Source: a virus (lineage: Duplodnaviria; Heunggongvirae; Uroviricota; Caudoviricetes). Taken from it: a stretch of DNA of 64,000 bases. A program made the translations under genes and the position numbers. Under the pieces are notes generated by a model, which was given only the letters and a program-made list of their open reading frames with translations, did no database searches and had not been told where the DNA came from. Location: positions 64,566-128,565 of IMG/VR virus record IMGVR_UViG_3300010348_000547, one strand, 5' to 3'. Shown one piece after another: positions 6,371 to 56,333 of the stretch (positions are counted from its first letter, which is position 1; each line of letters begins with the position of its first letter).

Positions 6371-8290
6371 TTAAAACAAGCTTAATTGTTGTTTTGGCTT
6401 TGGACAGATGTTATGTATTTCCTTGTAGATTTTTTCTAAGTAATAGCTCTCATCTACATTGTACTCTGCCCAAGGCTTCTTTACGAAATAACTCAAATCC
6501 TCCTGCATCCATTTACCGGATTCCAGTTGGATTTCCCTGCCGTCACTTTTATTCACCTTCATTATTTTGCAGCCTCTTTCAGATATATAATACCTAATCG
6601 TTTTCTGCAAAACTGTTTTCTCTATTGCTTTATTTCTTAAACAAGTTTGTTGAAATTCCCAGTCACCTTTGATTTTTACGCCTGCGCAATAATCAAGGAT
6701 GTTCCGGTTTTCCAGGAGAAATCTTTCTGGTGGAACGTCGTTGACAAAGTAATTGAAGATTGCCTTAGGGATAATGAGGAAGCTCTTGTTCTTATGAAGA
6801 GCTAAATCTTCAAACTCAAATCTACCTTTACACTTGTACTTACCAGCTTTGTTTACGGCAATGTAATTATTCACATCTCCAATAATCATCTTGGTGTACT
6901 CATCGTGTTCCAGTTGCAGGTTGGTTATCTTCTCCCATTCGGCACAGATTGCTAAATACTTTTCCTTATACTGTTCAGGAATCATCATTTCCAGACCATC
7001 TGTGTTTTGCATCAGTGGTACGGAACCTGGAATTCCTTCCGCTAACATTTCATACAGCATCATCAGACTTAGCTGTCCATTGATGGTAATCTGCATGGTG
7101 AACTGCGGGTCATACAGGAAAGAGTTTCGGTCGTTGCTTAGACCATAAGTTGAGTTAAGGATAATCTTGTACACATAATTCCGTGGGTCTTTCTTAGGGA
7201 TTTTCTTTCTCTCCTCGAAGAACCACTCATACAGTTGACAGAAATCCTTTTTAGGAAGGTGAGCAGGTGCCCAACCATTCCTGATTGCTAGATTCGGATA
7301 GAAGCTAGTCACATCCGATGTCATGATGATCATACCGTTACCTGAAACATACACTCCTGGTTCAGTGCAACCATGTACACCACCTAAGCCAAAATCAGTT
7401 TGTACCCCTTTGTATTTGAGAGAATATTTAAACCCTCCCTTGGTTACATTAGGGTTAACTACTACGGCTTTGAAATTGTCCAAGAGGTCTTGGAAAATAG
7501 GGGTTTTGAACTTCACATAGGGTACAATGATATCCTTCACCATAATGAGCGACCGGTTGGTGCGCATCTGACGTAAGTCATACTTTTGTATTCCAGTTTC
7601 CTTACTCAGGAAATGCATGAAAAGTTCTTTGGAAATTCTTGGTTCTGAAGCACTGAAGAGTCTTATCTTATACTCATCGGTCAAGGCGCCTCGCAGCGTG
7701 ATTTGTTCCTTGCTCAATTGCATAATCTTCTTAGTGGACTTCACATCATTCTTACAATAAGAGATAATCAAGTTGATTTGCTCCATTGTTTTAATACGAG
7801 TGCTGTGGTGAATTGGCATCTCTTGTATATTCTCCCAGTCCATGGAATACTGTATCCATTTCAAGGAAGACCTCTTTGCTGGGTTATCCCAGTGATTGAG
7901 CTTAAACACATCTACCTGTTCTATGGATAGATTTCTTTCACTGTATTCTGCAAACTCTCCAAACTCTTGCCGGCTGATTACCTCCTGCGCCTTCTCATAG
8001 ATGGCGGTTGCAATCTGTTCAGCGGTCATAGTGGACAATTTCTTCTTCTCCCGAAGAACAAATTCAGTAATCTGAGAGTCAAATGAAAGACCATTGAATG
8101 ACACATGCCATTCCTTTAGCTTTTTATTTTCTTCCAGAAAGGTTAAGAACTCTGGAAACTGGTCCAGGAGCTCATGGATAACGAAGACACGGGTATCGTC
8201 CGTCTTGTAATTTTCAAAGCATGCCACAAAACAATTACTGAGAGTTTCGTAGTCATGCACCCAATGGGTTCGAAGTCTCGGTTGGCTCAT
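6371..8290 (-). CDS. family B DNA polymerase (compact, 639 aa) with a 3'-5' exonuclease domain
   Basis: Exo I (HDYETL), Exo II (YCKNDV), motif A (DVTSFYPNL), motif B (KIILNSTYGLSN) and motif C (NTDGL). Confidence 0.7.
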   Translation of the reverse strand: MSQPRLRTHWVHDYETLSNCFVACFENYKTDDTRVFVIHELLDQFPEFLTFLEENKKLKEWHVSFNGLSFDSQITEFVLREKKKLSTMTAEQIATAIYEKAQEVISRQEFGEFAEYSERNLSIEQVDVFKLNHWDNPAKRSSLKWIQYSMDWENIQEMPIHHSTRIKTMEQINLIISYCKNDVKSTKKIMQLSKEQITLRGALTDEYKIRLFSASEPRISKELFMHFLSKETGIQKYDLRQMRTNRSLIMVKDIIVPYVKFKTPIFQDLLDNFKAVVVNPNVTKGGFKYSLKYKGVQTDFGLGGVHGCTEPGVYVSGNGMIIMTSDVTSFYPNLAIRNGWAPAHLPKKDFCQLYEWFFEERKKIPKKDPRNYVYKIILNSTYGLSNDRNSFLYDPQFTMQITINGQLSLMMLYEMLAEGIPGSVPLMQNTDGLEMMIPEQYKEKYLAICAEWEKITNLQLEHDEYTKMIIGDVNNYIAVNKAGKYKCKGRFEFEDLALHKNKSFLIIPKAIFNYFVNDVPPERFLLENRNILDYCAGVKIKGDWEFQQTCLRNKAIEKTVLQKTIRYYISERGCKIMKVNKSDGREIQLESGKWMQEDLSYFVKKPWAEYNVDESYYLEKIYKEIHNICPKPKQQLSLF

Positions 8291-35794: not shown

Positions 35795-36116
35795 TGTTTG
35801 TCTCTGTGTTTTTAATTCTCTTGAATTTCTTAGGCTTCAAGGTTGCCATAATTGTAAGAGCTACTAAATTGTTTTCTTCATCAGGTGACTTTAACATGTT
35901 CTGCAAGTTTACACCTTGCTCTTTGCTCACCTGTTTTTCTAAAATCAATTTTTCTACAGCATCTTGAACTAATCGCAATGCTTCAGCACCACCTCTTCGG
36001 TTATTAATTAGTTCTACCCATTCTTCAGGAGACTTTTCATATCTCCAGCGTCTTGTCCAAAACAATTTCATATGTGCTTTGTATTTGCTCTTAGACATTC
36101 CTCTTTTATAACTCAT
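35775..36116 (-). CDS. hypothetical protein (113 aa)
   Basis: ORF. Confidence 0.4.
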   Translation of the reverse strand: MSYKRGMSKSKYKAHMKLFWTRRWRYEKSPEEWVELINNRRGGAEALRLVQDAVEKLILEKQVSKEQGVNLQNMLKSPDEENNLVALTIMATLKPKKFKRIKNTETNNERKDN

Positions 36117-36580
36117 TTGTCTAAGCGTGTTAGTGAAAAGCCCATTTCCTTGGCTTCTTTAGGATGCATTTCGATCCATTCATGGCAAGCTCTGCATGCA
36201 GCTAGCCAATAAAGTATATTCAGGAGTAAGTCACCAACTCGACCAGCTTTGTGATGTACATCAGTTGCCTGACCTGTACACACACCTGGTATGTGAGCTT
36301 GGCACATACAATTCTTGGAGAGAAACTCCTTTCTCCTGATTGAATACTCTTGTTCTTCTTTAGCTCTTTTGGGAGAGCGTGAGGGTACGCGCTTTTGCAC
36401 AGACGTTGGTTTAATTCTGGGTCTAACTGAAAGAGCACTCCAGCATGACTTGCAATAACGTTTCCCCTCATGATTCTTCCAGATGAACTGGAACTCTCCA
36501 CAAGGGCCATCACACTTTTTCTTCTTTGCCTTCATTTGAATCCGGACTCTCAGAAGTTGTGGTAGGTGCATCAGTAGCAT
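36113..36580 (-). CDS. Cys/His-rich zinc-binding protein (NinG/Rap-like?)
   Basis: Several CxxC clusters plus DVHHK...ACRACHEWIEMHP, which resembles lambda NinG-type proteins. Tentative. Confidence 0.35.
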   Translation of the reverse strand: MLLMHLPQLLRVRIQMKAKKKKCDGPCGEFQFIWKNHEGKRYCKSCWSALSVRPRIKPTSVQKRVPSRSPKRAKEEQEYSIRRKEFLSKNCMCQAHIPGVCTGQATDVHHKAGRVGDLLLNILYWLAACRACHEWIEMHPKEAKEMGFSLTRLDK

Positions 36581-38667: not shown

Positions 38668-39141
38668 CTAGAAAGGCTTATCATCACTTAAGTTCTCGGG
38701 ATATTCCTCCGAGTGATTGAATACAACATCTGGGATACATGAATAGGAATCTTCTGTTGAATTACCTGATTCATCTATGCGCTCATAACGTACTTGTATA
38801 GATTCACGACGGTTGTGATTGATATCAACAACTACAGCTTTCACTAATGTTTCTTTTACTAGTAAACCTGCTTCACGCATTCTATCTTTATTCATACGCC
38901 ATGTGGGCATGTTGTCCCAAGGTATTAGTACATCATCTCCTATCTTTACATGCACTGATGGTTTTAATCCACTAAATGCATTATACAGATGAGATAAACC
39001 CATTTCTGAATCTGCTAAACCATCTACAATGGTTTCTGCGATAAGAGTGGCATGTGGGGTACCTTTCATGCACCCCACTAGCCTTTCTTTAATTTGTTCC
39101 ACAGATGTTCTTACTTCTATGTATGACTTTTTTCTTGACAT
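38668..39141 (-). CDS. hypothetical protein (157 aa)
   Basis: ORF. Confidence 0.45.
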   Translation of the reverse strand: MSRKKSYIEVRTSVEQIKERLVGCMKGTPHATLIAETIVDGLADSEMGLSHLYNAFSGLKPSVHVKIGDDVLIPWDNMPTWRMNKDRMREAGLLVKETLVKAVVVDINHNRRESIQVRYERIDESGNSTEDSYSCIPDVVFNHSEEYPENLSDDKPF

Positions 39142-40121
39142 TACTTTAAGTTAATCATGGGTGTGTTATTACCTAAGATTGTAGTTGGCAACTTACCATC
39201 CCAAGTTTGTGCTTTGATAAAGTCCACATAAATTGGAGACAATTCTTGTTTCTTCAAACGCATTGCTTCTGCTACACCTTTGGCTTCAATGATATCCGCT
39301 TGTGCTTTACCTGATGCTGTAATTACGGCTTTAGCTGAGTCACCTTTAGCTTGAGCGATTAACTTCTTGGCATTGGCATCTGCTACTAAAGCTTCTTGCA
39401 TTTTAGCTTGTGCTTCTTGAATTGCTTTGGTCTTATTTACAATAGCCTCTTTTAATGCTTCAGGAGGAACAATGTTGGTTCTCAACTGTGATACCGTAAA
39501 CCATTTAGAAACGCGCTTATTACATTCTGCTACAATAGCTGCTTCAAACTGTTCTCGGTTATTGAAGATGTCATCAACTGCCCACTTATTGGCTACGTCA
39601 TTAACAGAGCCACATACAGCATTCATTAACCAGCCCTGTTCAATTTCTTTAACGCTTACACGCAAGTTGACGAACATATCACCTACCTGGTCTGGCTTTA
39701 ATGTGTAATTGAATGTTGGTTTAATCGTTGCTGAGAATCCTCCTTTAGTAATTACACCCTGGTCTGCATACTCAATATGCTGTTGGAATGTAGGAAACTC
39801 ATATAAGTCTTCAGCCCAATTATTATACACGACCCAACCTGTTTTATAAGTATAGTCTGATACACCACGTTCATTACCGGTTAAGTTCACTTTGATACCA
39901 ATATGACCCGCATCTACACGTTCAAGACTATAAGGCTGAAATATGGCTACAATAAGAGCGCTCACCGCAATCACAATTGGCATCTTCAGCCAAGAACCTT
40001 TTACCTTTCGGATTTTATCTCCATAACGCGTTTCGGTCACTGTGAAACCGTCATTACGAGTTGCTACTAATAAACCACAGGCTAATGCTAAGCCTACTAA
40101 CAAGATAATTAATGAGATCAT
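39141..40121 (-). CDS. SPFH/band-7 domain membrane protein
   Basis: N-terminal TM anchor. The Ala/Lys/Gln-rich coiled tail (AIQEAQAKMQEALVADANAKKLIAQAKGDSAKA) is typical of HflK/C and prohibitin-like proteins. Confidence 0.55.
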   Translation of the reverse strand: MISLIILLVGLALACGLLVATRNDGFTVTETRYGDKIRKVKGSWLKMPIVIAVSALIVAIFQPYSLERVDAGHIGIKVNLTGNERGVSDYTYKTGWVVYNNWAEDLYEFPTFQQHIEYADQGVITKGGFSATIKPTFNYTLKPDQVGDMFVNLRVSVKEIEQGWLMNAVCGSVNDVANKWAVDDIFNNREQFEAAIVAECNKRVSKWFTVSQLRTNIVPPEALKEAIVNKTKAIQEAQAKMQEALVADANAKKLIAQAKGDSAKAVITASGKAQADIIEAKGVAEAMRLKKQELSPIYVDFIKAQTWDGKLPTTILGNNTPMINLK

Positions 40122-40324
40122 TCTGATTTAATTTTTAAGAGTTTAACAATTAATTTTAACAGGTAGTAACCTACCATAGCGTCAATTCCAAGCACTACTA
40201 CTAGAGCTAGAAAAGCTAACGCTCCCGGAACTATGTCACGGTTTACAACGTACTCAAAGTACGCACCATTTAGAAGCAGCAAAAAACTTAATGCTGCACC
40301 TAACTTAATCAAGTTTCTCAACAT
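40118..40324 (-). CDS. small membrane protein (68 aa), possible SPFH partner
   Basis: Two hydrophobic helices; its start overlaps the SPFH gene. Confidence 0.35.
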   Translation of the reverse strand: MLRNLIKLGAALSFLLLLNGAYFEYVVNRDIVPGALAFLALVVVLGIDAMVGYYLLKLIVKLLKIKSE

Positions 40325-40447: not shown

Positions 40448-41848
40448 TTAGTCAAATTTCACGCGAGCATATCGGTCTGTCATCACTGTGTCTAACATCA
40501 GTTGTTCAGGTCCGTAAACCTTACCCTTCAGAATAGACTTCAGTATTGATGGACTGAAACCGGATACCAATCCTACGCCTTGGTCTTGAACCTGTGCAGG
40601 AGAATTACCCAAACGACCGTTCACATTCCAGAAGATAATCTCAGGCATTACATAACCAGATTGGTTATACTTTGCACGGATTACATCCAAGTTTGTAGAG
40701 CGATTGTCTCTAGTTGCTGTATTAAACTCCATATCAGAGATAATTAACAACTTAGTAGGCATTTCTTCAGAGGGAATATTCTCTCTGATTGCACTGTTCA
40801 GGATTAGGTCAAAGGAAGCCTGCAGATTAGTGGTCATTCCCCACGCTGCTGAACTCAACTGACGCATCCTTTGAGTCAATGACCCTTTCAGGTATTGCAT
40901 CTCAGGATTTGAGCTGAATGTCAGGAACGCATCCTTGAATATACCTTCGTTTCTCTCAGAGATATAAATCCCAAGAGCAACGGATACATCCATAGGTAAC
41001 CCACCGTTATCATTCATAGAGCCAGACACATCACACATCGGTAAGATGCGTTCAGTACTGCCTTCCATGTAATTAGGTAGGTTATTCCACTGAGCTTCGA
41101 TTGCGCTTGCATTTTGACCACTCTTAACTGCTTGATACAATTGATGAGGGAACAAAACAGAGGCATTAATCTTGGCTTCTCCTGAATGAACTGCATCGAT
41201 ATATGCTTTCATGCGAGCTTCATCATGCTTGAAAAATGCCGTACGGTATCTATTCATAGCAATCGAAGGTACATGAGCATAATTAATGCCACCCCATTCA
41301 CGTCTGCACATAAGCGTCTCCACTACTACAGTCTTTTTCACTAAGTATTGACGGAACTCTTTTGGAGTTACTTTCATATACTTGTGCATGGCTACAAACC
41401 ATGGACCTTTGCGTGGGAACCACTTGGCTAAAAGACCAGCGTTCTCCGATTCCTCTAATGTTGTTTTCAACCAATTAAGGTTGTTATCATTAGGTTTCTC
41501 GATAACGAACACGTCTTTCCAGTATCCGAACTCTGGCACAAGAATCATCAGCTGATCAAAGACTTCCGGATAGTTAGTACCAATATGGCTCATAACAATT
41601 TGGAAGAATCTTCTCTCACCTGCACCTCCTCGTGCGTCGCGAGCCCAAAACAATATCTTCACAGCAACTAATGAGTCTTGAGCGAATGCTCTCTCAAAGG
41701 CTGTCACGATATCTTTTGGTTGCATGTTGCGAGATGCTCCTGCTAAGAAGAACAAATCTACACATGAATTTAACGAAGTCGAGTGCGTAACTGCTCCGTT
41801 TGCTGTCACGCTATTATAGCTGCGTGTTGCGTTTACTAATCTACTCAT
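40448..41848 (-). CDS. VWA-domain protein, candidate TROVE/Ro60-like (DUF2828-type)
   Basis: 466 aa. The C-terminal half has MIDAS elements (MCDVSGSMN, a Thr in TNLQASFD, LLIISDMEFN). The N-terminal half of about 260 aa is alpha-rich. An ORF-free ncRNA island with tRNA-like RNAs lies immediately upstream. Confidence 0.45.
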   Translation of the reverse strand: MSRLVNATRSYNSVTANGAVTHSTSLNSCVDLFFLAGASRNMQPKDIVTAFERAFAQDSLVAVKILFWARDARGGAGERRFFQIVMSHIGTNYPEVFDQLMILVPEFGYWKDVFVIEKPNDNNLNWLKTTLEESENAGLLAKWFPRKGPWFVAMHKYMKVTPKEFRQYLVKKTVVVETLMCRREWGGINYAHVPSIAMNRYRTAFFKHDEARMKAYIDAVHSGEAKINASVLFPHQLYQAVKSGQNASAIEAQWNNLPNYMEGSTERILPMCDVSGSMNDNGGLPMDVSVALGIYISERNEGIFKDAFLTFSSNPEMQYLKGSLTQRMRQLSSAAWGMTTNLQASFDLILNSAIRENIPSEEMPTKLLIISDMEFNTATRDNRSTNLDVIRAKYNQSGYVMPEIIFWNVNGRLGNSPAQVQDQGVGLVSGFSPSILKSILKGKVYGPEQLMLDTVMTDRYARVKFD

Positions 41849-41895
41849 TTGGCTTAGGTTTTTTAGTTAGTTAATAATTGATTAATGGTGATGTA

Positions 41896-42121
41896 CCCCT
41901 CTGCACTCAGTTATGCATGTTGTTTACTTCATTTCTGAAGGATGATTCGTTAGATGCTTTCTAGGCTCCTATACAATTGTAAGCAAATAAAAGTCCGTAA
42001 GATTTCTCTTGGGAACAGTAACAACAAACGTTAATCCATCATTGACTAATCTTGCTTGGTTCCTCGCGTGTTAGTCTACATAACTGCTCACCCTTGGGAA
42101 GTGAGTTATGGTGCATTAATA
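41896..42121. repeat. structured repeat element, copy 1 (conserved 16-nt 5' arm and 39-nt 3' arm around a 170-nt variable stem-loop)
   Basis: CCCTCTGCACTCAGTT...AACTGCTCACCCTTGGGAAGTGAGTTATGGTGCATTAAT. The internal stem CAGTTATG/CATAACTG covaries with copy 2. Confidence 0.5.
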
Positions 42122-42614
42122 TACAGGCGTGTTCAACATGTATAGTGAGACTTCATCTGTGTCTATACACTTCCCTCATTAAGGCCTTAGCCACCTGTAA
42201 TGTTATCTCAAGCACTTAGTTGTAGTAGTCAGACTGGGATTGATTACCCAGGCTCTGGCAGGGTACCACAACTACTGTCACACTACAACATTGTGCTATG
42301 AGAAAACTGTGTTGATTTTTAACAATGGACCAGGTTACTCCACCAATCATTACTAATTGGCTTCATAGATAAAGCATCATAGCTCACCTGAGTGTTTTAA
42401 TCCATCTAATCTTTAACAGTTATAGAGATAATAAATAAATGCAGGTCAACATCATCCCTGCTTGCCCCAGATATTGAAGACTAGATATGCTCTAATTGGC
42501 TGTTCTTTGGGGTTACCCTGATGGTTATTAACCTATTCCACTCAGCTGTGGGGTCAGATTGTTTAAATTAATAACTCGTGCTCTTTATACTCAGCAGGGA
42601 GAGATTTTGGATAT

Positions 42615-42718
42615 CCCTCTGCACTCAGTTGTAATAGTTGGTCTTAGGTCAATATCAATAGATATCCCATGTACATTACAACTGCTCACCCTTGGGAAGT
42701 GAGTTATGGTGCATTAAT
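42615..42718. repeat. structured repeat element, copy 2 (same arms, 49-nt variable stem-loop)
   Basis: Identical 5' and 3' arms. The internal stem CAGTTGTAAT/ATTACAACTG keeps base-pairing through compensatory changes. Confidence 0.5.
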
Positions 42719-42940
42719 TTTGGGAGAACCCACCACCTTTTCACGGGTGATGGGGCTCAGATGTACGACAGGATACGGTTACCACCACACGCTACTTTCG
42801 TAGGCAGGTTCTCCCGGGTTATTGAACTTATAGTTTATAGTTTATAAGTTGCTGATGTATCCTTTGACATCTAATGTTTGCAGAATGCTACTAAGCCAAG
42901 TTATCAAATTGGATTAATATGCTGAAGCATTCTTTGTTTG

Positions 42941-43061
42941 TGGGGGCAGCAGGATTCGAACCTGCGACACATTGTTTTTAGTTTGGTATGCTGACCCAAT
43001 CAACAGATTGGACTGCTTTCGCAGTTATAGACGATTGCTCTACCAGCTGAGCTACACCCCC
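42941..43061 (-). ncRNA. tRNA-like RNA A (acceptor, D-arm and T-arm intact; about 70-nt structured insertion replaces the anticodon region)
   Basis: Minus strand: GGGGGTG-TA-GCTCAGCTGGTAGAGC...GCAGGTTCGAATCCTGC-TGCCCCC-A. The insert holds a GNRA hairpin CTGCGAAAGCAG and the motifs TAACTGC and GCATACCAAAC. Confidence 0.55.
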
Positions 43062-43307
43062 GTTTGCTGTCTGTTCCAGCTGTCAACCCGTATTGTTCTT
43101 ATTGGATGGATGTTACCTCAATGGGCTCATTTCGATGCCAGTGTCCCACTTATTGCTCTGACAAAATCAGTTTTCGGGCCCGTTACTGTTCTTTCGAACT
43201 TAAGTATCCCTGATGCTGAAACATGGTGTGCAGAACTTTCTCTGTAGTCAACCACCCTTATGTAATTAAAAGTCACTAGTACTTCTCAGTCATAAGGCAG
43301 GATTTTG

Positions 43308-43423
43308 TAGGGAGGGCTGGACTCGAACCAGCGACCACGACGTTAACAGCGTAAGTTGGTATGCAGTTAGCAACCTTTGACAGGCTGCGTTTTACGTGCT
43401 CTAACCAGCTGAGCTACCTCCCT
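43308..43423 (-). ncRNA. tRNA-like RNA B (paralogue of A with a different, about 64-nt insertion)
   Basis: Minus strand: AGGGAGG-TA-GCTCAGCTGGTTAGAGC...GCTGGTTCGAGTCCAGC-CCTCCCT-A. It shares TAACTGC and GCATACCAAC with A. Confidence 0.55.
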
Positions 43424-43776
43424 AAAAATACGGACTCCAGCTTGATTCATTAAAAGTGAATTGCTTAAGTTGCTGTATGGAGTCCTTATTAGACAGATTC
43501 CCTTTTTGCTTTTTCCAATAAAAGTTTTTTAAGTTGCGGATGGAATCTTTGTTTAAGGTGGCTGAGAGTGTTGAGCTTTGTCTTGCGACTGACTCAACCT
43601 TTTGCTCTCAGCAATTTCTTAAAGAGTTCAGACTTGGTTACCTGGTAACTGTTGTCTCGGATCTCTCCGGCTACGTTCACTCGAATGGTGTCTACGCAGC
43701 TAAACTACATGCATTGTTCCTGACTTTCGTCAACGCTTTGAGCTTATAACACTCACAGTTGTTTTGCTCAGACCTT

Positions 43777-43794: not shown

Positions 43795-44277
43795 ATGAAG
43801 ACTTGTACACAATGTGATGGTAAACATCACGCTAAAGGTTACTGTAAGATTCACTACAAGGAGTTTATTCTCGACAGTAAAAAGCTTAATCAACTATGCT
43901 CAATAGATGGTTGTAACAATAATGTTGGAAAGAACGGTTTTAACGGATTATGTTCTAAACATTATACCCGTGTAAGACGTAATGGAGATGCTTTAATTGC
44001 AGGTAAAAACCGACAGTTTTATTCACTCCAAGAGTTCTTTAACACTAATGATACAGATACAATTCTTGACACTGTATTTGAAAGCAGAGTACGCTGGGCG
44101 TTTGCCGTCAAACTTTATTATGGTGACAAGTGTTGTAAATGTGGATGGGCTGAAACATCTTGCGATGCTGATCATATCATCCCTTTTGAATCCGGTGGTC
44201 CTAACACAATAAGAAATGGACAAGTTTTATGTCCTAATCATCATGCTATTAAACACCGACCTTCTACATCATCTTGA
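43795..44277 (+). CDS. HNH endonuclease with N-terminal Cys-rich repeats
   Basis: C-terminal CDADHIIPFESGGPNTIRNGQVLCPNHHAIKH. The ORF track starts at 43759, but the internal ATG at 43795 is chosen because of the promoter position. Confidence 0.6.
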   Translation: MKTCTQCDGKHHAKGYCKIHYKEFILDSKKLNQLCSIDGCNNNVGKNGFNGLCSKHYTRVRRNGDALIAGKNRQFYSLQEFFNTNDTDTILDTVFESRVRWAFAVKLYYGDKCCKCGWAETSCDADHIIPFESGGPNTIRNGQVLCPNHHAIKHRPSTSS

Positions 44278-44390: not shown

Positions 44391-44534
44391 TCATATTCCG
44401 CCACAATAGGCGCACTCAATCCAAGCACCTGTACCTGGACCACCAACATATTCATTATGGCCGCAATAGCCACATTTGAATACGAGCCTTTTGGGTTTTA
44501 CTTTAGGCTTTGATTTATGTTGTTTCTTTTTCAT
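44391..44534 (-). CDS. small zinc-ribbon protein (47 aa; not in the ORF track because it is under 60 aa)
   Basis: MKKKQHKSKPKVKPKRLVFKCGYCGHNEYVGGPGTGAWIECAYCGG with two CxxC pairs. Confidence 0.3.
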   Translation of the reverse strand: MKKKQHKSKPKVKPKRLVFKCGYCGHNEYVGGPGTGAWIECAYCGGI

Positions 44535-44542
44535 CAAATTCA

Positions 44543-44582
44543 AAAGATGAGACCGCGCATTAAATAGCTAGGTCTCATCTTT
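44543..44582. terminator. 12-bp perfect hairpin (AAAGATGAGACC-N16-GGTCTCATCTTT), candidate terminator or processing site
   Basis: Long perfect stem between convergent transcription units, with flanking T-rich sequence on both strands. Confidence 0.4.
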
Positions 44583-53644: not shown

Positions 53645-53716
53645 GGGGCTATAGCTCAGTTGGTAGAGCAGCGGACTGAAAATCCGTGGTCCCTGGTTCG
53701 ATTCCAGGTAGCCCCA
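53645..53716 (+). tRNA. tRNA-Phe (GAA)
   Basis: Cloverleaf GGGGCTA/TAGCCCC, D GCTC-AGTTGGTA-GAGC, anticodon loop CTGAAAA, T-loop TTCGATT. Confidence 0.8.
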
Positions 53717-53722
53717 CAATAT

Positions 53723-53805
53723 GCCGACACTGCAGAGTGGGAGATCTGCACCAGACTGTAAATCTGGCGTCATTGACTTTGGGGGTTCGAGTCCCTCTGG
53801 CGGCA
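53723..53805 (+). tRNA. tRNA-Tyr (GTA), class II
   Basis: Anticodon arm CCAGA-CTGTAAA-TCTGG, 13-nt variable arm, T-arm GGGGG-TTCGAGT-CCCTC, one A.G mismatch in the acceptor stem. Confidence 0.65.
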
Positions 53806-53811
53806 CAACAC

Positions 53812-53894
53812 GGAAGTGGTCTGAATGGACGAAGAGCTAGTCTTGAAAACTGGTGGCTGTAAAAGGTTTGGGGGTTCGATTCCCTTCGCTTCCG
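53812..53894 (+). tRNA. tRNA-Ser (TGA), class II
   Basis: Acceptor GGAAGTG/CGCTTCC-G, anticodon arm CTAGT-CTTGAAA-ACTGG, long variable arm. Confidence 0.7.
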
Positions 53895-53899
53895 CAAAT

Positions 53900-53972
53900 A
53901 CATCTCTAGCTCAACTGGTAGAGCAGTGGTCTCCAAAACCAAAGGTTGTAGGTTCGATTCCTGCGAGATGTG
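53900..53972 (+). tRNA. tRNA-Trp (CCA)
   Basis: ACATCTC/GAGATGT acceptor, anticodon loop CTCCAAA, canonical D and T arms. Confidence 0.8.
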
Positions 53973-53977
53973 CAAAT

Positions 53978-54050
53978 GGTACCGTGGATGAGTTGGTTTA
54001 GTCTCAGGTCTGCAAAACTTGCTACGTCAGTTCGAATCTGACCGGTACCT
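53978..54050 (+). tRNA. tRNA-Cys (GCA)
   Basis: Acceptor GGTACCG/CGGTACC, anticodon arm CAGGT-CTGCAAA-ACTTG, T-arm GTCAG-TTCGAAT-CTGAC, irregular D region. Confidence 0.6.
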
Positions 54051-54059
54051 CAAACATAC

Positions 54060-54146
54060 GGAAGATAGGCAGATATTGGTTTGTTGCACCGCACTGCTAA
54101 CGCGGCCCAGGTAAAACTGGTGAGGGTTCGAGCCCCTTGTCTTCCG
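54060..54146 (+). tRNA. tRNA-Ser (GCT), class II
   Basis: Acceptor GGAAGAT/GTCTTCC, anticodon loop CTGCTAA, variable hairpin CCAG-GTAAAA-CTGG. Confidence 0.7.
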
Positions 54147-54152
54147 CACTAT

Positions 54153-54234
54153 GCCTCTGTGGCGGAATTGGTAGACGCGTTGGTCTTAGGAACCAATGTC
54201 GAAAGGCGTGCAGGTTCGAGTCCTGTCAGAGGTA
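54153..54234 (+). tRNA. tRNA-Leu (TAG), class II
   Basis: Anticodon arm TTGGT-CTTAGGA-ACCAA, 13-nt variable arm, T-arm GCAGG-TTCGAGT-CCTGT. Confidence 0.75.
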
Positions 54235-54238
54235 CAAT

Positions 54239-54318
54239 GCTCCGGTGGTGAAACTGGTAGACGCGCAGGACTTAAAATCCTGTCCTTCGGGGTGCGGGTT
54301 CAAATCCCGCTCGGAGTA
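54239..54318 (+). tRNA. tRNA-Leu (TAA), class II
   Basis: Anticodon arm CAGGA-CTTAAAA-TCCTG, T-arm GCGGG-TTCAAAT-CCCGC. Confidence 0.75.
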
Positions 54319-54523
54319 CAAAAAAAAAATATTTTTGCAAAATGTTTGCAGGAATAAAAACTATGCTTATATTTGTAGCGCAAATGAAACATGTACAACA
54401 TATAAATATCCAGGTGGCGAAAGCCATGATTACGCGCAGAGGCGATGAGCCGTCATGCCCGGAGGGTTTTGTATATTGTCTTGCTTCACATAAATAAGAA
54501 GTCATAGAAATCAAAATACGCAA

Positions 54524-54560
54524 AAGCCTCTGGGAATCATCTCAGAGGCTTTTTTGTTTT
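54524..54560 (+). terminator. rho-independent terminator inside the tRNA array
   Basis: AGCCTCTG-N10-CAGAGGCT followed by TTTTTTGTTTT. It abuts the 5' end of tRNA-Pro. Confidence 0.6.
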
Positions 54561-54633
54561 CGAGATGTAGTTCAGTTGGTAGAACGCGTGCTTTGGGAGC
54601 ATGAGGTCGTCGGTTCGAGTCCGGCTATCTCGA
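54561..54633 (+). tRNA. tRNA-Pro (TGG)
   Basis: Acceptor CGAGATG/TATCTCG, anticodon loop TTTGGGA, T-arm GTCGG-TTCGAGT-CCGGC. Confidence 0.75.
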
Positions 54634-54643
54634 CTTAAATTAT

Positions 54644-54716
54644 GGGCCAGATGCCGACGGCAGGTCAACCCGCTTGCACCGGGATTGTATGGGTTCGATT
54701 CCCACTGTGTCCACAG
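54644..54716 (+). pseudogene. pseudo-tRNA or tRNA-like fragment with an Ala-type anticodon loop (CTTGCAC) and no acceptor stem
   Basis: Anticodon arm ACCCG-CTTGCAC-CGGGA and T-arm TGGG-TTCGATT-CCCA are present, but the flanks cannot pair as an acceptor stem. Confidence 0.35.
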
Positions 54717-54781
54717 AGCTGATTATCAGGTGCAACCTAACAGCGGATTCGCAACCCGTCTGGATAATCAGGTTACATTAA

Positions 54782-54857
54782 GCGCCAGTAGCTCAATTGG
54801 TAGAGCTCTAGCCTTCCAAGCTAGAGGTTGCGGGTTCGAGACCCGCCTGACGCTCCA
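54782..54857 (+). tRNA. tRNA-Gly (TCC), CCA encoded
   Basis: Anticodon arm CTAGC-CTTCCAA-GCTAG, T-arm GCGGG-TTCGAGA-CCCGC, 3' CTGACGC-T-CCA. Confidence 0.75.
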
Positions 54858-55015
54858 ACATCTGTGATTACAATAAGCAGATGGAAGGGAAGTAAAATGA
54901 AATTCAGCACGGGGTTAGTTCTGCGTGTTTGTAAGGAGTGGTTGGAGGCCACAGTCCCCGACTAACAGGGACAAAGTACTGAAAAAGCCTTATAACGAAT
55001 GGATTACTTCCCTAT
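54858..55015 (+). ncRNA. structured spacer RNA candidate between tRNA-Gly and tRNA-Asp
   Basis: Hairpin CATCTG/CAGATG at 54859-54883. A 9-bp long-range stem GGGAAGTAA (54887-95)/TTACTTCCC (55004-12) encloses internal hairpins such as GTCCC-N9-GGGAC. A 22-codon micro-ORF lies inside. Confidence 0.35.
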
Positions 55016-55022
55016 GATTTTT

Positions 55023-55101
55023 GGTCTGTTGGGGGAGTTCGGCCGTCCCTGCTGCACTGTCACTGCAGAGATCACGGGTTCAAATCCCGTACAGACCGCC
55101 A
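55023..55101 (+). tRNA. tRNA-Asp (GTC), CCA encoded
   Basis: Acceptor GGTCTGT/ACAGACC-G-CCA, anticodon arm CTGCA-CTGTCAC-TGCAG, T-arm ACGGG-TTCAAAT-CCCGT. Confidence 0.75.
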
Positions 55102-55180
55102 GGAAGCAAACATGGGTTCGATTCCCATCAACTGGTCTAGTGCCGGTTGTCGTCTAGGGGTCAGGACGGCTTCACGTTAT
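55102..55180 (+). other. permuted tRNA-like halves (a 3' half followed by a 5' half of a Glu-type tRNA-like sequence)
   Basis: Order: GAAGC (anticodon 3' strand), AAAC, T-arm ATGGG-TTCGATT-CCCAT, acceptor 3' AACTGGT, then acceptor 5' GCCGGTT, GT, D-arm CGTC-TAGGGGTCAG-GACG, anticodon 5' strand GCTTC. All four stems are complementary but circularly permuted. Confidence 0.4.
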
Positions 55181-55252
55181 TGCTTCTTAGCTCAGCGGTA
55201 GAGCAGCGCCCTGTTAAGGCGACGGTCCTAGGTTCAATCCCTAGAGGAGCAG
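55181..55252 (+). tRNA. tRNA-Asn (GTT)
   Basis: TGCTTCT-TA-GCTC-AGCGGTA-GAGC, anticodon loop CTGTTAA, T-arm CTAGG-TTCAATC-CCTAG, 3' AGGAGCA-G. Confidence 0.7.
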
Positions 55253-55259
55253 CAAACAT

Positions 55260-55334
55260 TGACACATGGCGCAGCCTGGTTAGCGCATCACACTGATAAT
55301 GTGAGGGTCCCAAGTTCAAATCTTGGTGTGTCAA
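55260..55334 (+). tRNA. tRNA-Ile (GAT)
   Basis: TGACACA/TGTGTCA, anticodon arm TCACA-CTGATAA-TGTGA, T-arm CCAAG-TTCAAAT-CTTGG. Confidence 0.75.
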
Positions 55335-55340
55335 CTTAAT

Positions 55341-55415
55341 ATCAGAATAGCTCAGCTGGTTCAGAGCAACACCCTTACAAGGTGAAGGCCGGGAGTTCGA
55401 ATCTCTCTTCTGATA
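55341..55415 (+). tRNA. tRNA-Val (TAC)
   Basis: ATCAGAA/TTCTGAT, anticodon loop CTTACAA, T-arm GGGAG-TTCGAAT-CTCTC. Confidence 0.7.
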
Positions 55416-55496
55416 CACAAAATATATTTAAACTTGTAATGTTTACACTAATAAGATATAGAAGAAGCAAGGCTAAGATAAAATCTTAGTCCAAAC

Positions 55497-55570
55497 TCCT
55501 CTATAGCTTAGCTGGCTAAAGCACCATACTTTTAATATGGGGACCGCGGGTTCGAATCCCGCTAGAGGAA
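55497..55570 (+). tRNA. tRNA-Lys (TTT)
   Basis: TCCTCTA/TAGAGGA, anticodon arm CCATA-CTTTTAA-TATGG, T-arm GCGGG-TTCGAAT-CCCGC. A hairpin CTAAGAT-AAA-ATCTTAG sits just upstream at 55471-55492. Confidence 0.75.
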
Positions 55571-55577
55571 CAAATCT

Positions 55578-55654
55578 CTCCCCATAGCTTAACTGCATAA
55601 AGCTTTTGCCTTCTAAGCAAACGATTACAAGTTGGAATCTTGTTGGGGAGACCA
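55578..55654 (+). tRNA. tRNA-Arg (TCT), CCA encoded
   Basis: CTCCCCA/TGGGGAG-A-CCA, anticodon arm TTTGC-CTTCTAA-GCAAA. Confidence 0.75.
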
Positions 55655-55655
55655 C

Positions 55656-55730
55656 GCACCTTTAGCTCAGTTCGGTCAGAGCAGCTCACTCATAATGAGA
55701 AGGTCGTTGGTTCAAGTCCAATAAGGTGCA
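55656..55730 (+). tRNA. tRNA-Met (CAT), elongator-type
   Basis: GCACCTT/AAGGTGC, anticodon loop CTCATAA, no 3xG-C initiator signature. Confidence 0.7.
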
Positions 55731-55740
55731 CAAAATATTT

Positions 55741-55814
55741 GGCGGGGTAGAGCAGTCGGCTAGCTCGTGAGACTCATAACCTCAAGGTCACTGGTTCGAA
55801 TCCAGTCCCCGCTA
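55741..55814 (+). tRNA. tRNA with CAT anticodon, second copy (Met, or Ile2 if lysidinylated; fMet unlikely)
   Basis: GGCGGGG/CCCCGCT, anticodon loop CTCATAA, T-arm ACTGG-TTCGAAT-CCAGT. Confidence 0.65.
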
Positions 55815-55879
55815 CTAGAGTGCTAATGACGCCTGACAAAGGAGGGGATATATAACGCAGGTCTCCCGACACTCAACTT

Positions 55880-55951
55880 GTTCCTGTCTTCTAGGGGTTA
55901 GGATATTGCCCTTTCACGGCAATGACACGGGTTCGAATCCCGTCAGGAATA
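55880..55951 (+). tRNA. tRNA-Glu (TTC)
   Basis: GTTCCTG/CAGGAAT, Glu-type D-arm TTC-TAGGGGTTAG-GAT, anticodon arm TTGCC-CTTTCAC-GGCAA. Confidence 0.7.
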
Positions 55952-55956
55952 CATAA

Positions 55957-56029
55957 GCCAAAGTAGCTCAGCTGGTAGAGCTCCTGATTTGTAATCAGAT
56001 GGTCGTAGGTTCGAACCCTATCTTTGGCT
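55957..56029 (+). tRNA. tRNA-Thr (TGT)
   Basis: GCCAAAG/CTTTGGC, anticodon loop TTTGTAA, canonical D-arm. Confidence 0.75.
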
Positions 56030-56031
56030 CT

Positions 56032-56106
56032 GTGTTAGTAGCATATTCGGTTAATGTATCAGATTGTGGATCTGAGGAACAGGGTTCGATTCCCGCTAAC
56101 ACCCCA
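56032..56106 (+). tRNA. tRNA-His (GTG), CCA encoded, weak T-stem
   Basis: GTGTTAG/CTAACAC-C-CCA, anticodon arm TCAGA-TTGTGGA-TCTGA. Only a 3-bp T-stem and no encoded G-1. Confidence 0.55.
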
Positions 56107-56109
56107 ATT

Positions 56110-56183
56110 GGTTTCGTAGCTCAACTGGATAGAGCGTTACACTACGGATGTAAAGGTTCGGGGTTCGACTCCCTGTGAGACCA
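56110..56183 (+). tRNA. tRNA-Arg (ACG)
   Basis: Anticodon arm TTACA-CTACGGA-TGTAA, T-arm CGGGG-TTCGACT-CCCTG. Confidence 0.7.
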
Positions 56184-56191
56184 CTTCTTAT

Positions 56192-56264
56192 TGTCCTGTA
56201 GATTAACTGGCAAATCGTCTGATTTTGGATCAGAAGACTCCTGGTTCGAACCCAGGCGGGACAA
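56192..56264 (+). tRNA. tRNA-Gln (TTG)
   Basis: U1:A72-type acceptor TGTCCTG/CGGGACA, D-arm GATT-AACTGGCA-AATC, anticodon arm TCTGA-TTTTGGA-TCAGA. Confidence 0.7.
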
Positions 56265-56333
56265 CTTTCTTTTACAAGTTCTTGCATATTTGAATTGTTT
56301 TCTGTATATTGATTAAAAGATATTGACAGCATC

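What the first reader, a model, noticed from the sequence alone, without database searches (positions are those of the whole stretch)
40448..43450. Candidate Ro60/TROVE-like VWA protein next to a 1.9 kb ORF-free island of structured RNAs
The product of 40448-41848 ends in a VWA domain with a complete MIDAS motif (DVSGSM ... T ... D) after an alpha-rich N-terminal half of about 260 aa. That is the architecture of Ro60/TROVE and of DUF2828-type phage proteins. Directly upstream on the same strand lies 1.9 kb with no ORF of 60 aa or more on either strand, in an otherwise gene-dense phage. It contains two copies of a conserved stem-loop element with compensatory base changes and two tRNA-like RNAs. 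Bacterial Ro60 orthologues are known to sit next to Y-RNA genes carrying tRNA-mimicking modules. A phage-encoded Ro-like RNP with its own RNAs in a Bacteroidetes-type phage would be unusual. It could act in RNA quality control or as an RNA decoy during infection.
Basis: partly seen in the sequence, partly recalled or inferred. Interest (0 to 1): 0.85.

Follow-up and report, generated by a model that had tools for sequence, protein, structure and literature searches.

The report
Phage Ro-like protein and partner RNAs
A phage gene for a Ro60-shaped RNA-binding protein lies behind a 1.9-kb array of small structured RNAs (two tRNA look-alikes, four short stem-loops, two probable self-cutting ribozymes); the tRNA look-alikes and stem-loops share a motif found next to this protein family in very different phages, which points to an undescribed viral RNA-protein particle.

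Summary
- two tRNA-like RNAs whose anticodon loop is replaced by about 50 nt carrying a hairpin plus UAAC(A/U)GCA;
- four roughly 55-nt stem-loops of the form "AAG-stem-(N)CAGCAA...stem-CUG";
- two copies of a twister-like ribozyme.

DNA-pattern scans that did not use the protein recovered both RNA families from viral metagenomes. A DUF2828 gene shares the locus and strand in 30 of 52 tRNA-like hits and 20 of 31 stem-loop hits, against 0 of 12 stemless pattern matches. These proteins are only 27-44% identical to the window's. Covariation supports the RNA folds.

The ribozyme-like element is widespread and is not specific to this gene. In relatives, pistol, hatchet or hammerhead ribozymes sit upstream of the gene instead.

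Best reading: a Ro60/Y-RNA-type RNP with a new cognate RNA family. Phage Ro60 with Y-like RNAs is known, but this RNA family is not. The stem-loops closely resemble Dictyostelium Class I RNAs.

The parts
40448..41848 (-). Gene for a 466-aa Ro60-like protein (DUF2828 helical TROVE-like half plus DUF7788/VWA half with complete MIDAS)
41891..42124 (-). D2: twister-like self-cleaving ribozyme candidate (type P1, with a ~190-nt P5 insertion). Predicted cleavage between U42118 and A42117. Lies 43 nt upstream of the start codon.
   Evidence: Same conserved core as 97 distinct copies. Covariation in P1, P5 and the T1 pseudoknot. Position-by-position match to a documented twister sequence. Not matched by the Rfam twister models.
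42610..42721 (-). D1: second copy of the twister-like element with a short P5. Predicted cleavage between U42716 and A42715.
42722..42866 (-). Module C, 3' part. SL4 motif (cAAAG-GAUAC-AU-CAGCAA ... GUAUC-CUGU, stem 42863/42770) interleaved with a conserved long hairpin GGGAGAAC/GUUCUCCC (42815-42722).
   Evidence: Conserved in L001, L014, L027 and L003 directly upstream of their DUF2828 genes. Hairpin covariation.
42882..42933 (-). SL3: Class I-like stem-loop (AGAAUGCU-U-CAGCAU ... AGCAUUCU-G)
   Evidence: homologous copies in L002, L004-L010, L013 and L034
42941..43061 (-). T1: tRNA-like RNA with full acceptor, D and T arms. The anticodon loop is replaced by two hairpins plus GUCAGCAUA. An ACAGCAA copy lies just 5' of it at 43070-43064.
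   Evidence: Rfam tRNA 48.6 bits. Family model R1 78.5 bits. Family covariation.
43308..43423 (-). T2: tRNA-like RNA. The anticodon loop is replaced by an extended stem, hairpin GCAGCC/GGUUGC and UAACUGCAUA.
   Evidence: Rfam tRNA 47.0 bits. R1 86.7 bits. The orthologue in L012 has compensatory changes in the acceptor stem, T stem and hairpin.
43432..43485 (-). SL2: Class I-like stem-loop (GGACUCCA-UA-CAGCAA-CUUAAG ... UGGAGUCC-GU)
   Evidence: (Dicty_Class_I_RNA 19.8 bits)
43495..43548 (-). SL1: Class I-like stem-loop (AGAUUCC-AU-CCGCAA-CUUAAA ... GGAAUCU-GU)
   Evidence: (Dicty_Class_I_RNA 25.6 bits, E 0.088)
43599..43716 (-). Module A: conserved multi-stem RNA of unknown class at the 5' end of the island. 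In relatives it is preceded by a hammerhead-like core.
   Evidence: Conserved in L001, L014 and L003. 7 pairs have changes on both sides among 4 sequences.
39141..40121 (-). SPFH/Band-7 family gene downstream of the Ro-like gene, separated from it by a 68-aa ORF (40118-40324). A recurrent neighbour.
   Evidence: Pfam Band_7 E 2.7e-18. A homolog lies on the same strand near DUF2828 in 13 of 81 loci and in mycobacteriophage DuncansLeg.

Best explanation
The locus encodes a phage Ro60-type ribonucleoprotein system.

**Protein.** It is a divergent Ro60 homolog: a TROVE-like helical ring plus a VWA/MIDAS domain, filed in Pfam as DUF2828+DUF7788.

**RNAs.** The co-oriented 1.9-kb leader is most likely transcribed as a precursor carrying several small non-coding RNAs. 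These share one recognition module: a helix end followed directly by single-stranded (A)C(A/U)GCA(A/U). The module appears in two scaffolds:
- short ~55-nt stem-loops (SL1-SL4);
- tRNA-like RNAs (T1, T2), in which the module replaces the anticodon loop. This parallels the way bacterial YrlA Y RNAs combine a Ro-binding site with a tRNA-like domain.

**Inferred mechanism.** The protein binds this module, possibly threading the single strand into its ring with the helix on the surface, as Ro60 does. The tRNA-like body would recruit tRNA-handling or RNA-decay enzymes. The two twister-like ribozymes, together with RNase P/Z acting on the tRNA-like ends, would cut the precursor. That would release the small RNAs and separate them from the mRNA.

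**Shown:** the fold, the RNA structures (by covariation), and the gene-RNA linkage.
**Inferred:** transcription, processing, binding, and the downstream role. The likely role is RNA or tRNA quality control, or hijacking or blocking of host RNA decay or repair during infection. That guess fits the family's frequent position beside phage tRNA arrays.

For: **tRNA-like family.** Two protein-blind DNA scans found it.
- 25 modelled pairs are 93.6% paired against 65.7% in shuffles. The covariation score is 0.737 against 0.188 in shuffles and ~0.13 in slid controls. Acceptor, anticodon, hairpin and T helices all show double changes.
- 30 of 52 hits have a DUF2828 homolog (23-44% identical) on the same strand in the locus. 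In 25 it starts 165-1058 nt downstream; in three it ends ~130 nt upstream of the RNA.

**Stem-loop family.**
- CAGCAA occurs at 1.28/kb in same-strand flanks of DUF2828 genes, against 0.26/kb on the opposite strand and 0.39/kb elsewhere.
- 46% of these copies have a closing stem of 7 bp or more, against 6% after shuffling.
- 61 of 81 DUF2828 loci carry at least one.
- A protein-blind scan gave 31 hits with a full stem. 20 have DUF2828 on the same strand, 18 of them with the gene starting 86-399 nt downstream. None of 12 stemless matches do.

**Cultured phages.** The same motif sits next to the gene in E. coli phage JH2 and in mycobacteriophage DuncansLeg. In DuncansLeg a permuted, YrlA-topology tRNA-like lies between motif copies; the Rfam YrlA model gives a partial hit of 27.3 bits.

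**Ribozymes.** Pistol (L013, 42.8 bits), hatchet (L034, 79.8 bits) and hammerhead (L012, 32.5 bits) lie upstream of the gene on the same strand in relatives.

**Precedent.** Phage and bacterial Ro60 genes are flanked by their Y RNAs (PMC4201824, PMC12135203).
Against: - There is no experimental evidence here for transcription, processing or binding.
- There is no sequence-level match to TROVE.
- The Rfam Y_RNA and YrlA models do not match the window.
- The tRNA-like RNA is absent from most of the closest relatives (L001-L011). Those carry only stem-loops and ribozymes, so no single RNA form is obligatory.
- The stem-loops often sit at a fixed ~240 nt upstream of the gene, which would also fit a cis-acting leader.
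- The loci are phylogenetically related, and some are duplicates of one contig, so the counts overstate the number of independent events.
- The AF2 model is of moderate confidence (pLDDT 77, TM ~0.5 to Ro60).
Confidence: 0.65

Rival explanations
1. The CAGCAA stem-loops are cis-acting leader or processing elements of the DUF2828 mRNA, not stable partner RNAs. They could be autoregulatory operators, RNase entry sites or transcript stabilisers. The tRNA-likes would then be unrelated passengers of a phage tRNA/ncRNA region.
For: Many stem-loops lie at a near-constant ~240 nt upstream of the gene on the same strand. The gene family often sits at the edge of ordinary tRNA arrays (L020, L021, L030 and JH2). 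Ribozymes in the same leader fit mRNA processing.
Against: Stem-loops also occur downstream of the gene (L026 +44 and +112; DuncansLeg +52, +113 and +259), and in 2-5 copies per locus. The same motif is built into the anticodon arm of a covarying tRNA-like scaffold that is itself linked to the gene. That is hard to explain for an mRNA operator. Even under this rival the protein would still recognise the motif.
Confidence: 0.2
2. T1 and T2 are real, intron-containing or degenerate tRNA genes. The protein is a VWA-domain factor unrelated to RNA, for example an assembly chaperone cofactor. The co-location is coincidental.
For: The Rfam tRNA model scores 47-49 bits with full acceptor, D and T arms. 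VWA proteins in phages can be MoxR cochaperones (PMC7824862).
Against: No consistent U33 or purine-37 anticodon loop can be read on either side of the insertion across the family (sequences). ARAGORN does not call them. The insertion carries its own conserved motif and a covarying hairpin. Linkage to DUF2828 holds at 23-44% protein identity. The helical half matches Ro60 specifically, not only the VWA domain.
Confidence: 0.07
3. The ORF-free island is a replication origin or packaging site, and the apparent RNA structures are incidental.
For: It is a long non-coding stretch between divergently oriented genes, with an HNH gene on the + strand at 43813-44277.
Against: There are no iterons or inverted repeats beyond the RNA element copies. 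There is no GC, AT or skew anomaly. The structures are strand-specific and covary. The elements are found individually in many unrelated phage contexts.
Confidence: 0.03

Closest known systems
Bacterial and phage Ro60 (Rsr) with YrlA/Y RNAs, including Thermus phage phiLo Ro60-Yrl1/Yrl2 (PMC4201824, PMC12135203)
   Same: Ring-like helical domain plus VWA/MIDAS fold. Small RNA genes lie directly beside the protein gene on the same strand. At least one RNA carries a tRNA-like domain. In mycobacteriophage DuncansLeg the RNA next to the DUF2828 gene even has the permuted YrlA topology.
   Different: There is no detectable sequence similarity to TROVE, and the protein belongs to a separate Pfam family. 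In the window the tRNA-like is not permuted: the acceptor ends are free and the insertion sits in the anticodon arm. The conserved element is helix plus single-stranded ACAGCAA, not the Y-RNA bulged helix or the CGAA motif used for phiLo. The Rfam Y_RNA and YrlA models do not match the window.
Dictyostelid Class I RNAs (Rfam RF01414; PMC7919456)
   Same: About 55-60 nt. A terminal stem of 6-8 bp conserved in structure but not sequence. A conserved motif (CC)UUACAGCAA directly after the 5' stem strand. Conserved start AAG and end C-UG(U). Often clustered in several copies. The Rfam model gives 25.6, 19.8 and 25.1 bits on SL1, SL2 and an L020 copy.
   Different: The scores are below Rfam's gathering score of 41.5. 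The host is a phage rather than an amoeba, with no DUSE promoter. Class I RNAs were reported as unique to Dictyostelia, and their known direct binder is the RRM protein Rnp1A/CIBP. Common ancestry as against convergence is untested.
Twister self-cleaving ribozyme, type P1 with optional P5 (PMC6154101; sequence in bioRxiv 10.1101/2020.06.20.162982)
   Same: Order and spacing are the same: P1 - UAA - 4-bp P2 - 2-nt T2 strand - 4 nt - P4 hairpin with loop U(U)CCCAAG(C/G) - [P5] - P2' - GAGGG - P1'. P1 and the CCC/GGG pseudoknot covary. In related loci, pistol, hatchet and hammerhead ribozymes lie upstream of the same gene.
   Different: The Rfam twister models give no hit even at E of 10 or below. 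T2 is CC/GG instead of GC/GC. A P5 stem is present, which is reported in only ~1% of twisters. Cleavage is untested.
Canonical phage tRNA genes
   Same: T1 and T2 have acceptor, D and T arms with the usual conserved nucleotides and score above the Rfam tRNA gathering score.
   Different: There is no anticodon loop. A 51-55-nt structured insertion with its own conserved motif takes its place. They lie 10 kb from the phage's real 23-tRNA array (53645-56265) and on the other strand.

Membership tests
Ro60 / TROVE-VWA proteins | Helical-repeat (TROVE) domain followed by a VWA domain, forming the Ro fold | tested here: met
Ro60 / TROVE-VWA proteins | Sequence match to the Pfam TROVE model (PF05731) or to solved Ro60 sequences | tested here: not met
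   Pfam at E of 10 or below lists only DUF7788 and DUF2828. phmmer and a profile search against PDB sequences find no Ro60.
Ro60 / TROVE-VWA proteins | MIDAS motif DxSxS...T...D in the VWA domain | tested here: met
   D273, S275, S277, T340 and D372 are invariant in 28 homologs.
Ro60 / TROVE-VWA proteins | Binds Y RNA or misfolded RNA | not testable with these tools
   The only evidence is genomic linkage to conserved RNAs.
DUF2828/DUF7788 (PHROG 850) | Matches to PF11443 and PF25043 above the curated cut-offs | tested here: met
   125.3 bits (cut-off 29) and 172.2 bits (cut-off 27.1). PHROG 850 E 1e-140.
YrlA (Rfam RF02553) | Score at or above the gathering score of the covariance model | tested here: not met
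   No hit in the window at E of 10 or below. 19.4 bits on L012 and 27.3 bits (partial, model positions 24-84) on DuncansLeg, against a gathering score of 69.
YrlA (Rfam RF02553) | tRNA-like domain (D and T arms) encoded next to a Ro-type gene | tested here: met
   T1 and T2. Family linkage to DUF2828.
YrlA (Rfam RF02553) | Permuted topology: acceptor-like stem closed by a loop, RNA ends in the Ro-binding stem | tested here: not met
   In the window the acceptor ends are free and the insertion is in the anticodon arm. The permuted form is seen only in DuncansLeg.
tRNA | Cloverleaf with a 7-nt anticodon loop (U33, purine 37) | tested here: not met
   A 51-55-nt insertion takes its place. No consistent anticodon loop exists across 43 family members. 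ARAGORN is negative. Acceptor, D and T arms are present (Rfam 47-49 bits).
Twister ribozyme | P1, P2 and P4 helices with T1 and T2 pseudoknots around a U-A cleavage site, and conserved GA-GGG | tested here: met
   Mapping onto a documented twister sequence. P1 pair 2 is canonical in 78 of 97 copies against 42 expected. T1 shows C-G in 78 copies and A-U in 17, with 2 mismatches. P4 and P5 covary. P2 and T2 are invariant, partly because the search pattern fixed them.
Twister ribozyme | Match to the Rfam twister covariance models | tested here: not met
   No twister hit at E of 10 or below in the 3.1-kb island or in a 171-nt search of the shortest copy.
Twister ribozyme | Site-specific self-cleavage | not testable with these tools
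   An in vitro transcription and cleavage assay is needed.
Dictyostelid Class I RNA (RF01414) | Short terminal stem, conserved motif adjacent to the 5' stem strand, AAG start and CUG(U) end, ~60 nt | tested here: met
   SL1-SL3 and 48 further copies from other loci. Alignment with published Class I sequences. Feature list from PMC7919456.
Dictyostelid Class I RNA (RF01414) | Score at or above the Rfam gathering score (41.5 bits) | tested here: not met
   25.6, 19.8 and 25.1 bits. The original authors used a CM score of 25 or more plus a stem to nominate candidates.
Dictyostelid Class I RNA (RF01414) | DUSE promoter ~60 nt upstream; expression in dictyostelids | not tested
   Not applicable to a phage.

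The most novel reading that the evidence does not exclude
The phage stem-loops and the Class I RNAs of dictyostelid amoebae are the same kind of RNA: ligands of DUF2828-type Ro-like proteins. DUF2828 is also a eukaryotic and giant-virus family. Class I RNAs have had no known mechanism since 2004. A pull-down with Class I RNA DdR-21 recovered an uncharacterised protein, DDB_G0281243. If that protein, or another dictyostelid protein, is a DUF2828 member, Class I RNAs would be the Y-RNA equivalents of a second, widespread Ro-like RNP family shared by phages, giant viruses and eukaryotes.
Probability: 0.25. Interest if true: 0.92.

Novelty: new variant of a known kind. Interest (0 to 1): 0.8.

Why it matters
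Ro60-Y RNA particles are a conserved but poorly understood RNA-surveillance system. This locus indicates a second large branch of them.

- **Size of the family.** The search scored more than 6,600 homologous protein clusters, and the family is present in 696 sequenced phages. These include tractable ones: Felix O1-like coliphages, cluster L mycobacteriophages, and Listeria, Staphylococcus and Campylobacter phages.
- **A candidate ligand.** The family has its own, previously unrecognised RNA ligands, defined by a simple motif (helix plus ACAGCAA). That gives an immediate, testable binding site for a 'domain of unknown function'.
- **A link to other phage RNAs.** The locus ties the protein to phage tRNA arrays and to self-cleaving ribozymes, whose biology in phages is unknown.
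- **A lead on Class I RNAs.** It offers a concrete hypothesis for the orphan Class I RNAs of Dictyostelium.

Tried and rejected
- **Nucleotide similarity.** Megablast of the locus against 50,697 phage records found no match.
- **Sequence searches for Ro60.** A single sequence and a profile against PDB sequences found no Ro60.
- **Known RNA families.** The Rfam twister, Y_RNA, YrlA, ROOL and GOLLD families have no hit in the island at E of 10 or below. A focused 171-nt Rfam search on the shortest D copy gave nothing.
- **D as the protein's partner RNA.** Rejected. Only 6 of 80 D copies found by a protein-blind scan lie upstream of a DUF2828 gene.
- **Intron-containing tRNA.** Rejected. No anticodon loop can be read, and ARAGORN is negative.
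- **Replication origin or pac site.** No iterons and no composition anomaly.
- **Sigma-70 promoter and terminator scan.** Not above shuffles, so uninformative.
- **Opposite-strand TTG ORFs (91 and 71 aa).** No family match.
- **Dictyostelium DUF2828 check.** This failed. The afdb50 fold library was unavailable. Homolog lists and cluster look-ups carry no organism names. The 2011 pull-down paper is not held, and the term DDB_G0281243 occurs in one preprint only.
- **Primary ribozyme papers.** The twister and new-ribozyme papers (PMC3867598, PMC4509812) are not held.


Full report
**1. What is there**

The ORF 40448-41848 on the - strand encodes 466 aa. Pfam assigns DUF2828 (PF11443, E 4e-36) to the helical part and DUF7788 (PF25043, E 1e-50) to residues 270-445. 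PHROGs assigns phrog_850, 'RNA-binding protein', at E 1e-140. In an alignment of 28 homologs the MIDAS residues D273, S275, S277, T340 and D372 are invariant.

The stretch from 41849 to about 43750 has no ATG-initiated ORF of 60 aa or more. Two TTG-start ORFs on the other strand (91 and 71 aa) are listed mechanically and match no phage protein family. GC content and skews in the interval are ordinary, and there are no iterons.

**2. The protein is Ro60-like by fold, not by sequence**

Single-sequence and profile searches against all PDB sequences find nothing. Pfam TROVE does not appear even at E of 10 or below.

An AlphaFold2 model (pLDDT 77, pTM 0.75) gives different results when compared with solved structures:
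- By Foldseek its best matches are a 'Trove domain' entry, the Ro60 of Thermus phage phiLo and human Ro60. All are aligned over the full length, at E 2.5e-6 to 1.7e-4.

So the helical half is specifically TROVE-like.

The family is large. The search scored more than 6,600 clusters in the protein collection. It occurs in 696 cultured phage records, among them Felixounavirus, cluster L mycobacteriophages, and Listeria, Staphylococcus, Campylobacter, Vibrio and Aeromonas phages. Some records already carry the label 'Ro-like RNA binding protein'. Phage Ro60 proteins with adjacent Y-like RNAs are published for TROVE-annotated proteins (PMC4201824, PMC12135203).

**3. The two tRNA-like RNAs belong to a family linked to this protein**

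Rfam's tRNA model matches 43061-42941 (T1, 48.6 bits) and 43423-43308 (T2, 47.0 bits) on the gene's strand. The anticodon region carries 51- and 55-nt insertions. ARAGORN does not call them.

A T2 orthologue upstream of the DUF2828 gene in L012 shows compensatory changes in the acceptor stem, the T stem and an internal hairpin.

Two pattern scans of IMG/VR that used only RNA features recovered dozens of relatives. They share this architecture:
- full acceptor, D and T arms;
- an anticodon stem;
- an A-rich linker;
- a hairpin;
- an invariant single-stranded UAAC(A/U)GCA(A/U);
- a second linker.

On a 34-sequence alignment the 25 modelled pairs are 93.6% paired, against 65.7% in shuffles. The covariation score is 0.737, against 0.188 in shuffles and about 0.13 when partners are slid. 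All five anticodon-stem pairs and all four hairpin pairs show changes on both sides. No consistent U33 or R37 anticodon loop exists, so these are not intron-containing tRNAs.

Of 52 pattern hits, 30 have a DUF2828 homolog on the same strand in the locus, only 23-44% identical to the window protein. In 25 the gene starts 165-1058 nt downstream. In three it ends about 130 nt upstream. Several of the remaining hits are cut by the end of the locus.

**4. The stem-loops carry the same motif and are linked to the gene as well**

SL1 (43548-43495), SL2 (43485-43432), SL3 (42933-42882) and SL4 (from 42863) all read 'cAAAG - 5-7-nt stem strand - 0-3 nt - C(A/C)GCA(A/U) - variable loop - complementary strand - C-UG'.

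The same design lies next to DUF2828 genes in most related loci, often in 2-5 copies. Examples are E. coli phage JH2 and mycobacteriophage DuncansLeg. In DuncansLeg three copies fill an unannotated gap after the 'Ro-like' gene. A permuted tRNA-like (T arm, acceptor hairpin, D arm) lies between the second and third copies. Rfam's YrlA model matches it partially (27.3 bits, model positions 24-84).

- CAGCAA occurs at 1.28/kb in same-strand 1.5-kb flanks of DUF2828 genes, against 0.26/kb on the opposite strand and 0.39/kb elsewhere.
- 46% of the flank copies have a closing stem of 7 bp or more, against 6% after shuffling the downstream sequence.
- 61 of 81 DUF2828 loci have at least one.

A protein-blind scan (AAAGAC N5 ACAGCAA N25-55 GTCTTG) returned 43 matches. 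Of the 31 whose two free stem positions are also complementary, 20 have a DUF2828 gene on the same strand. In 18 of those the gene starts 86-399 nt downstream. Of the 12 matches without that complementarity, none do.

**5. The repeated element D1/D2 is a probable twister-class ribozyme and is not specific to this gene**

D1 (42721-42610) and D2 (42124-41891) share a near-invariant core around a variable insertion. A scan with the 5' half found at least 118 loci. Only 6 of 80 copies lie upstream of a DUF2828 gene.

Across 97 distinct cores:
- The helix formed by the flanks (P1) covaries strongly. Its second pair is canonical in 78 of 97 copies, against 42 expected, and sliding the partner abolishes the signal.
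- A loop-tail pseudoknot shows C-G in 78 copies, A-U in 17 and two mismatches.
- P4 and P5 covary.

The order and spacing P1-UAA-P2(4 bp)-2 nt-4 nt-P4(loop UUCCCAAGG)-[P5]-P2'-GAGGG-P1' match a documented twister sequence position by position. They also match the published description: cleavage at U-A, pseudoknots T1 and T2, and an optional P5 in about 1% of twisters.

The Rfam twister models nevertheless give no hit. Membership is therefore structural inference only.

In relatives, a pistol (L013), a hatchet (L034) or a hammerhead (L012) ribozyme lies upstream of the gene on the same strand, and hammerhead-like cores can be read by eye in L001 and L003. This fits the known clustering of self-cleaving ribozymes near phage genes (PMC4604425, PMC6765202). 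It also supports a processing role.

**6. Mechanism**

*Shown:* the Ro-like fold, the covarying RNA structures, and the conserved RNA-gene linkage.

*Inferred:* the leader is transcribed with the gene. The ribozymes and tRNA-end-processing enzymes cut it into small RNAs. The protein recognises 'helix end + ACAGCAA'. The tRNA-like scaffold recruits other factors, as the tRNA-like domain of YrlA is thought to.

The frequent position of the gene at the head or tail of ordinary phage tRNA arrays suggests a role in tRNA or RNA surveillance, repair or decay during infection. Examples are L020, L021, L030, L031 and JH2. An SPFH/Band-7 gene is a recurrent neighbour. This last step is the weakest part of the argument.

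**7. Comparison with known systems, and novelty**

The system works like Ro60-Y RNA. It fails the sequence-based membership tests for TROVE, YrlA and Y_RNA.

The stem-loops match every descriptive feature of dictyostelid Class I RNAs: about 60 nt, a 6-bp terminal stem conserved only in structure, the motif CCUUACAGCAA beside the 5' strand, an AAG start and a CUGU end (PMC7919456). They align with published Class I sequences. Rfam's Class I model is the best sub-threshold hit for three separate copies, at 25.6, 19.8 and 25.1 bits against a gathering score of 41.5.

Class I RNAs were reported as unique to Dictyostelia. DUF2828 also occurs in eukaryotes and giant viruses. One of four proteins pulled down with a Class I RNA is uncharacterised (DDB_G0281243). 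Whether that protein is a DUF2828 member could not be checked here.

**8. Still unexplained**

- The spacers 43300-43062 and 42600-42125.
- Module A (43716-43599), which is conserved with covariation in L001, L014 and L003.
- The long conserved hairpin of module C (42815-42722), which interleaves with the SL4 stem.

Noticed in passing
window 53645-56265 (+): An array of 23 canonical tRNA genes, 10 kb from the Ro-like gene and on the opposite strand. In many other phages the DUF2828 gene directly abuts such an array.
   Followed up: partly
L013:5116-5184, L034:4587-4748, L012:3776-3821 (all +, upstream of the DUF2828 gene): Pistol (42.8 bits), hatchet (79.8 bits) and type I hammerhead (32.5 bits, just under the gathering score of 34) ribozymes lie upstream of the gene on the same strand, as the twister-like element does in the window. 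Hammerhead-like cores (CUGAUGA...GAAAC) can also be read by eye in L001 ~5473-5505 and L003 ~4065-4115.
   Followed up: partly
L038 (Mycobacterium phage DuncansLeg) 5401-5788: An unannotated 387-nt gap after gp55 'Ro-like RNA binding protein' holds three ACAGCAA stem-loops and a permuted tRNA-like (T arm, acceptor hairpin ACCGGGC/CCCGGUG, D arm). This is a YrlA-type topology. The Rfam YrlA model gives a partial hit of 27.3 bits.
   Followed up: partly
L037 (Escherichia phage JH2) 6416-10740: The DUF2828 gene is followed at once by ~25-30 tRNA genes that are not annotated in the record, interspersed with three stem-loops of the form GACCnnnnnCAGCAA...GGUCUGG. A D-arm-less tRNA-like with ACAGCAA lies at 7434-7564.
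   Followed up: partly
window 39141-40121 (-): An SPFH/Band-7 gene lies downstream of the Ro-like gene, separated from it by a 68-aa ORF. Band-7 homologs recur on the same strand near DUF2828 in 13 of 81 loci, and in DuncansLeg (gp48).
   Followed up: partly
window 43599-43716 (-): Module A is a ~120-nt multi-stem element conserved in L001, L014 and L003, with 7 covarying pairs. It matches no Rfam family, and its function is unknown.
   Followed up: partly
window 42722-42866 (-): Two conserved pairings interleave: GGAUAC/GUAUCC (invariant) and GGGAGAAC/GUUCUCCC (covarying). They form either a pseudoknot or mutually exclusive folds.
   Followed up: no
window 42125-42600 and 43062-43300 (-): Two spacers of ~475 and ~240 nt inside the island have no ORF, no detected homolog in the fetched loci and no assigned structure. 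43218-43213 holds another CAGCAU within a possible GUUCU/AGAAC stem-loop.
   Followed up: no
window 43813-44277 (+) and 36113-36580 (-): HNH endonuclease genes flank the region. The island and its modular make-up (A + C in L001, against A + SL1/SL2/T2/T1 + C + D1 + D2 here) suggest insertion and shuffling of RNA modules.
   Followed up: no
window 41807-41801 (-), codons 14-16 of the gene: The motif ACAGCAA also occurs inside the coding sequence (Thr-Ala-Asn of the conserved N-terminal VTANGA). It is not conserved at nucleotide level in most relatives, so it is probably incidental.
   Followed up: partly
L036:5722-7668 (giant-virus MAG): A 648-aa DUF2828/DUF7788 homolog in a giant-virus contig, plus relatives in marine eukaryote transcriptomes (MMETSP), show that the family extends beyond phages.
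   Followed up: partly
window 44391-44543 (-): A 50-aa ORF with two CxxC pairs (weak zinc-ribbon match) lies upstream of the island.
   Followed up: no
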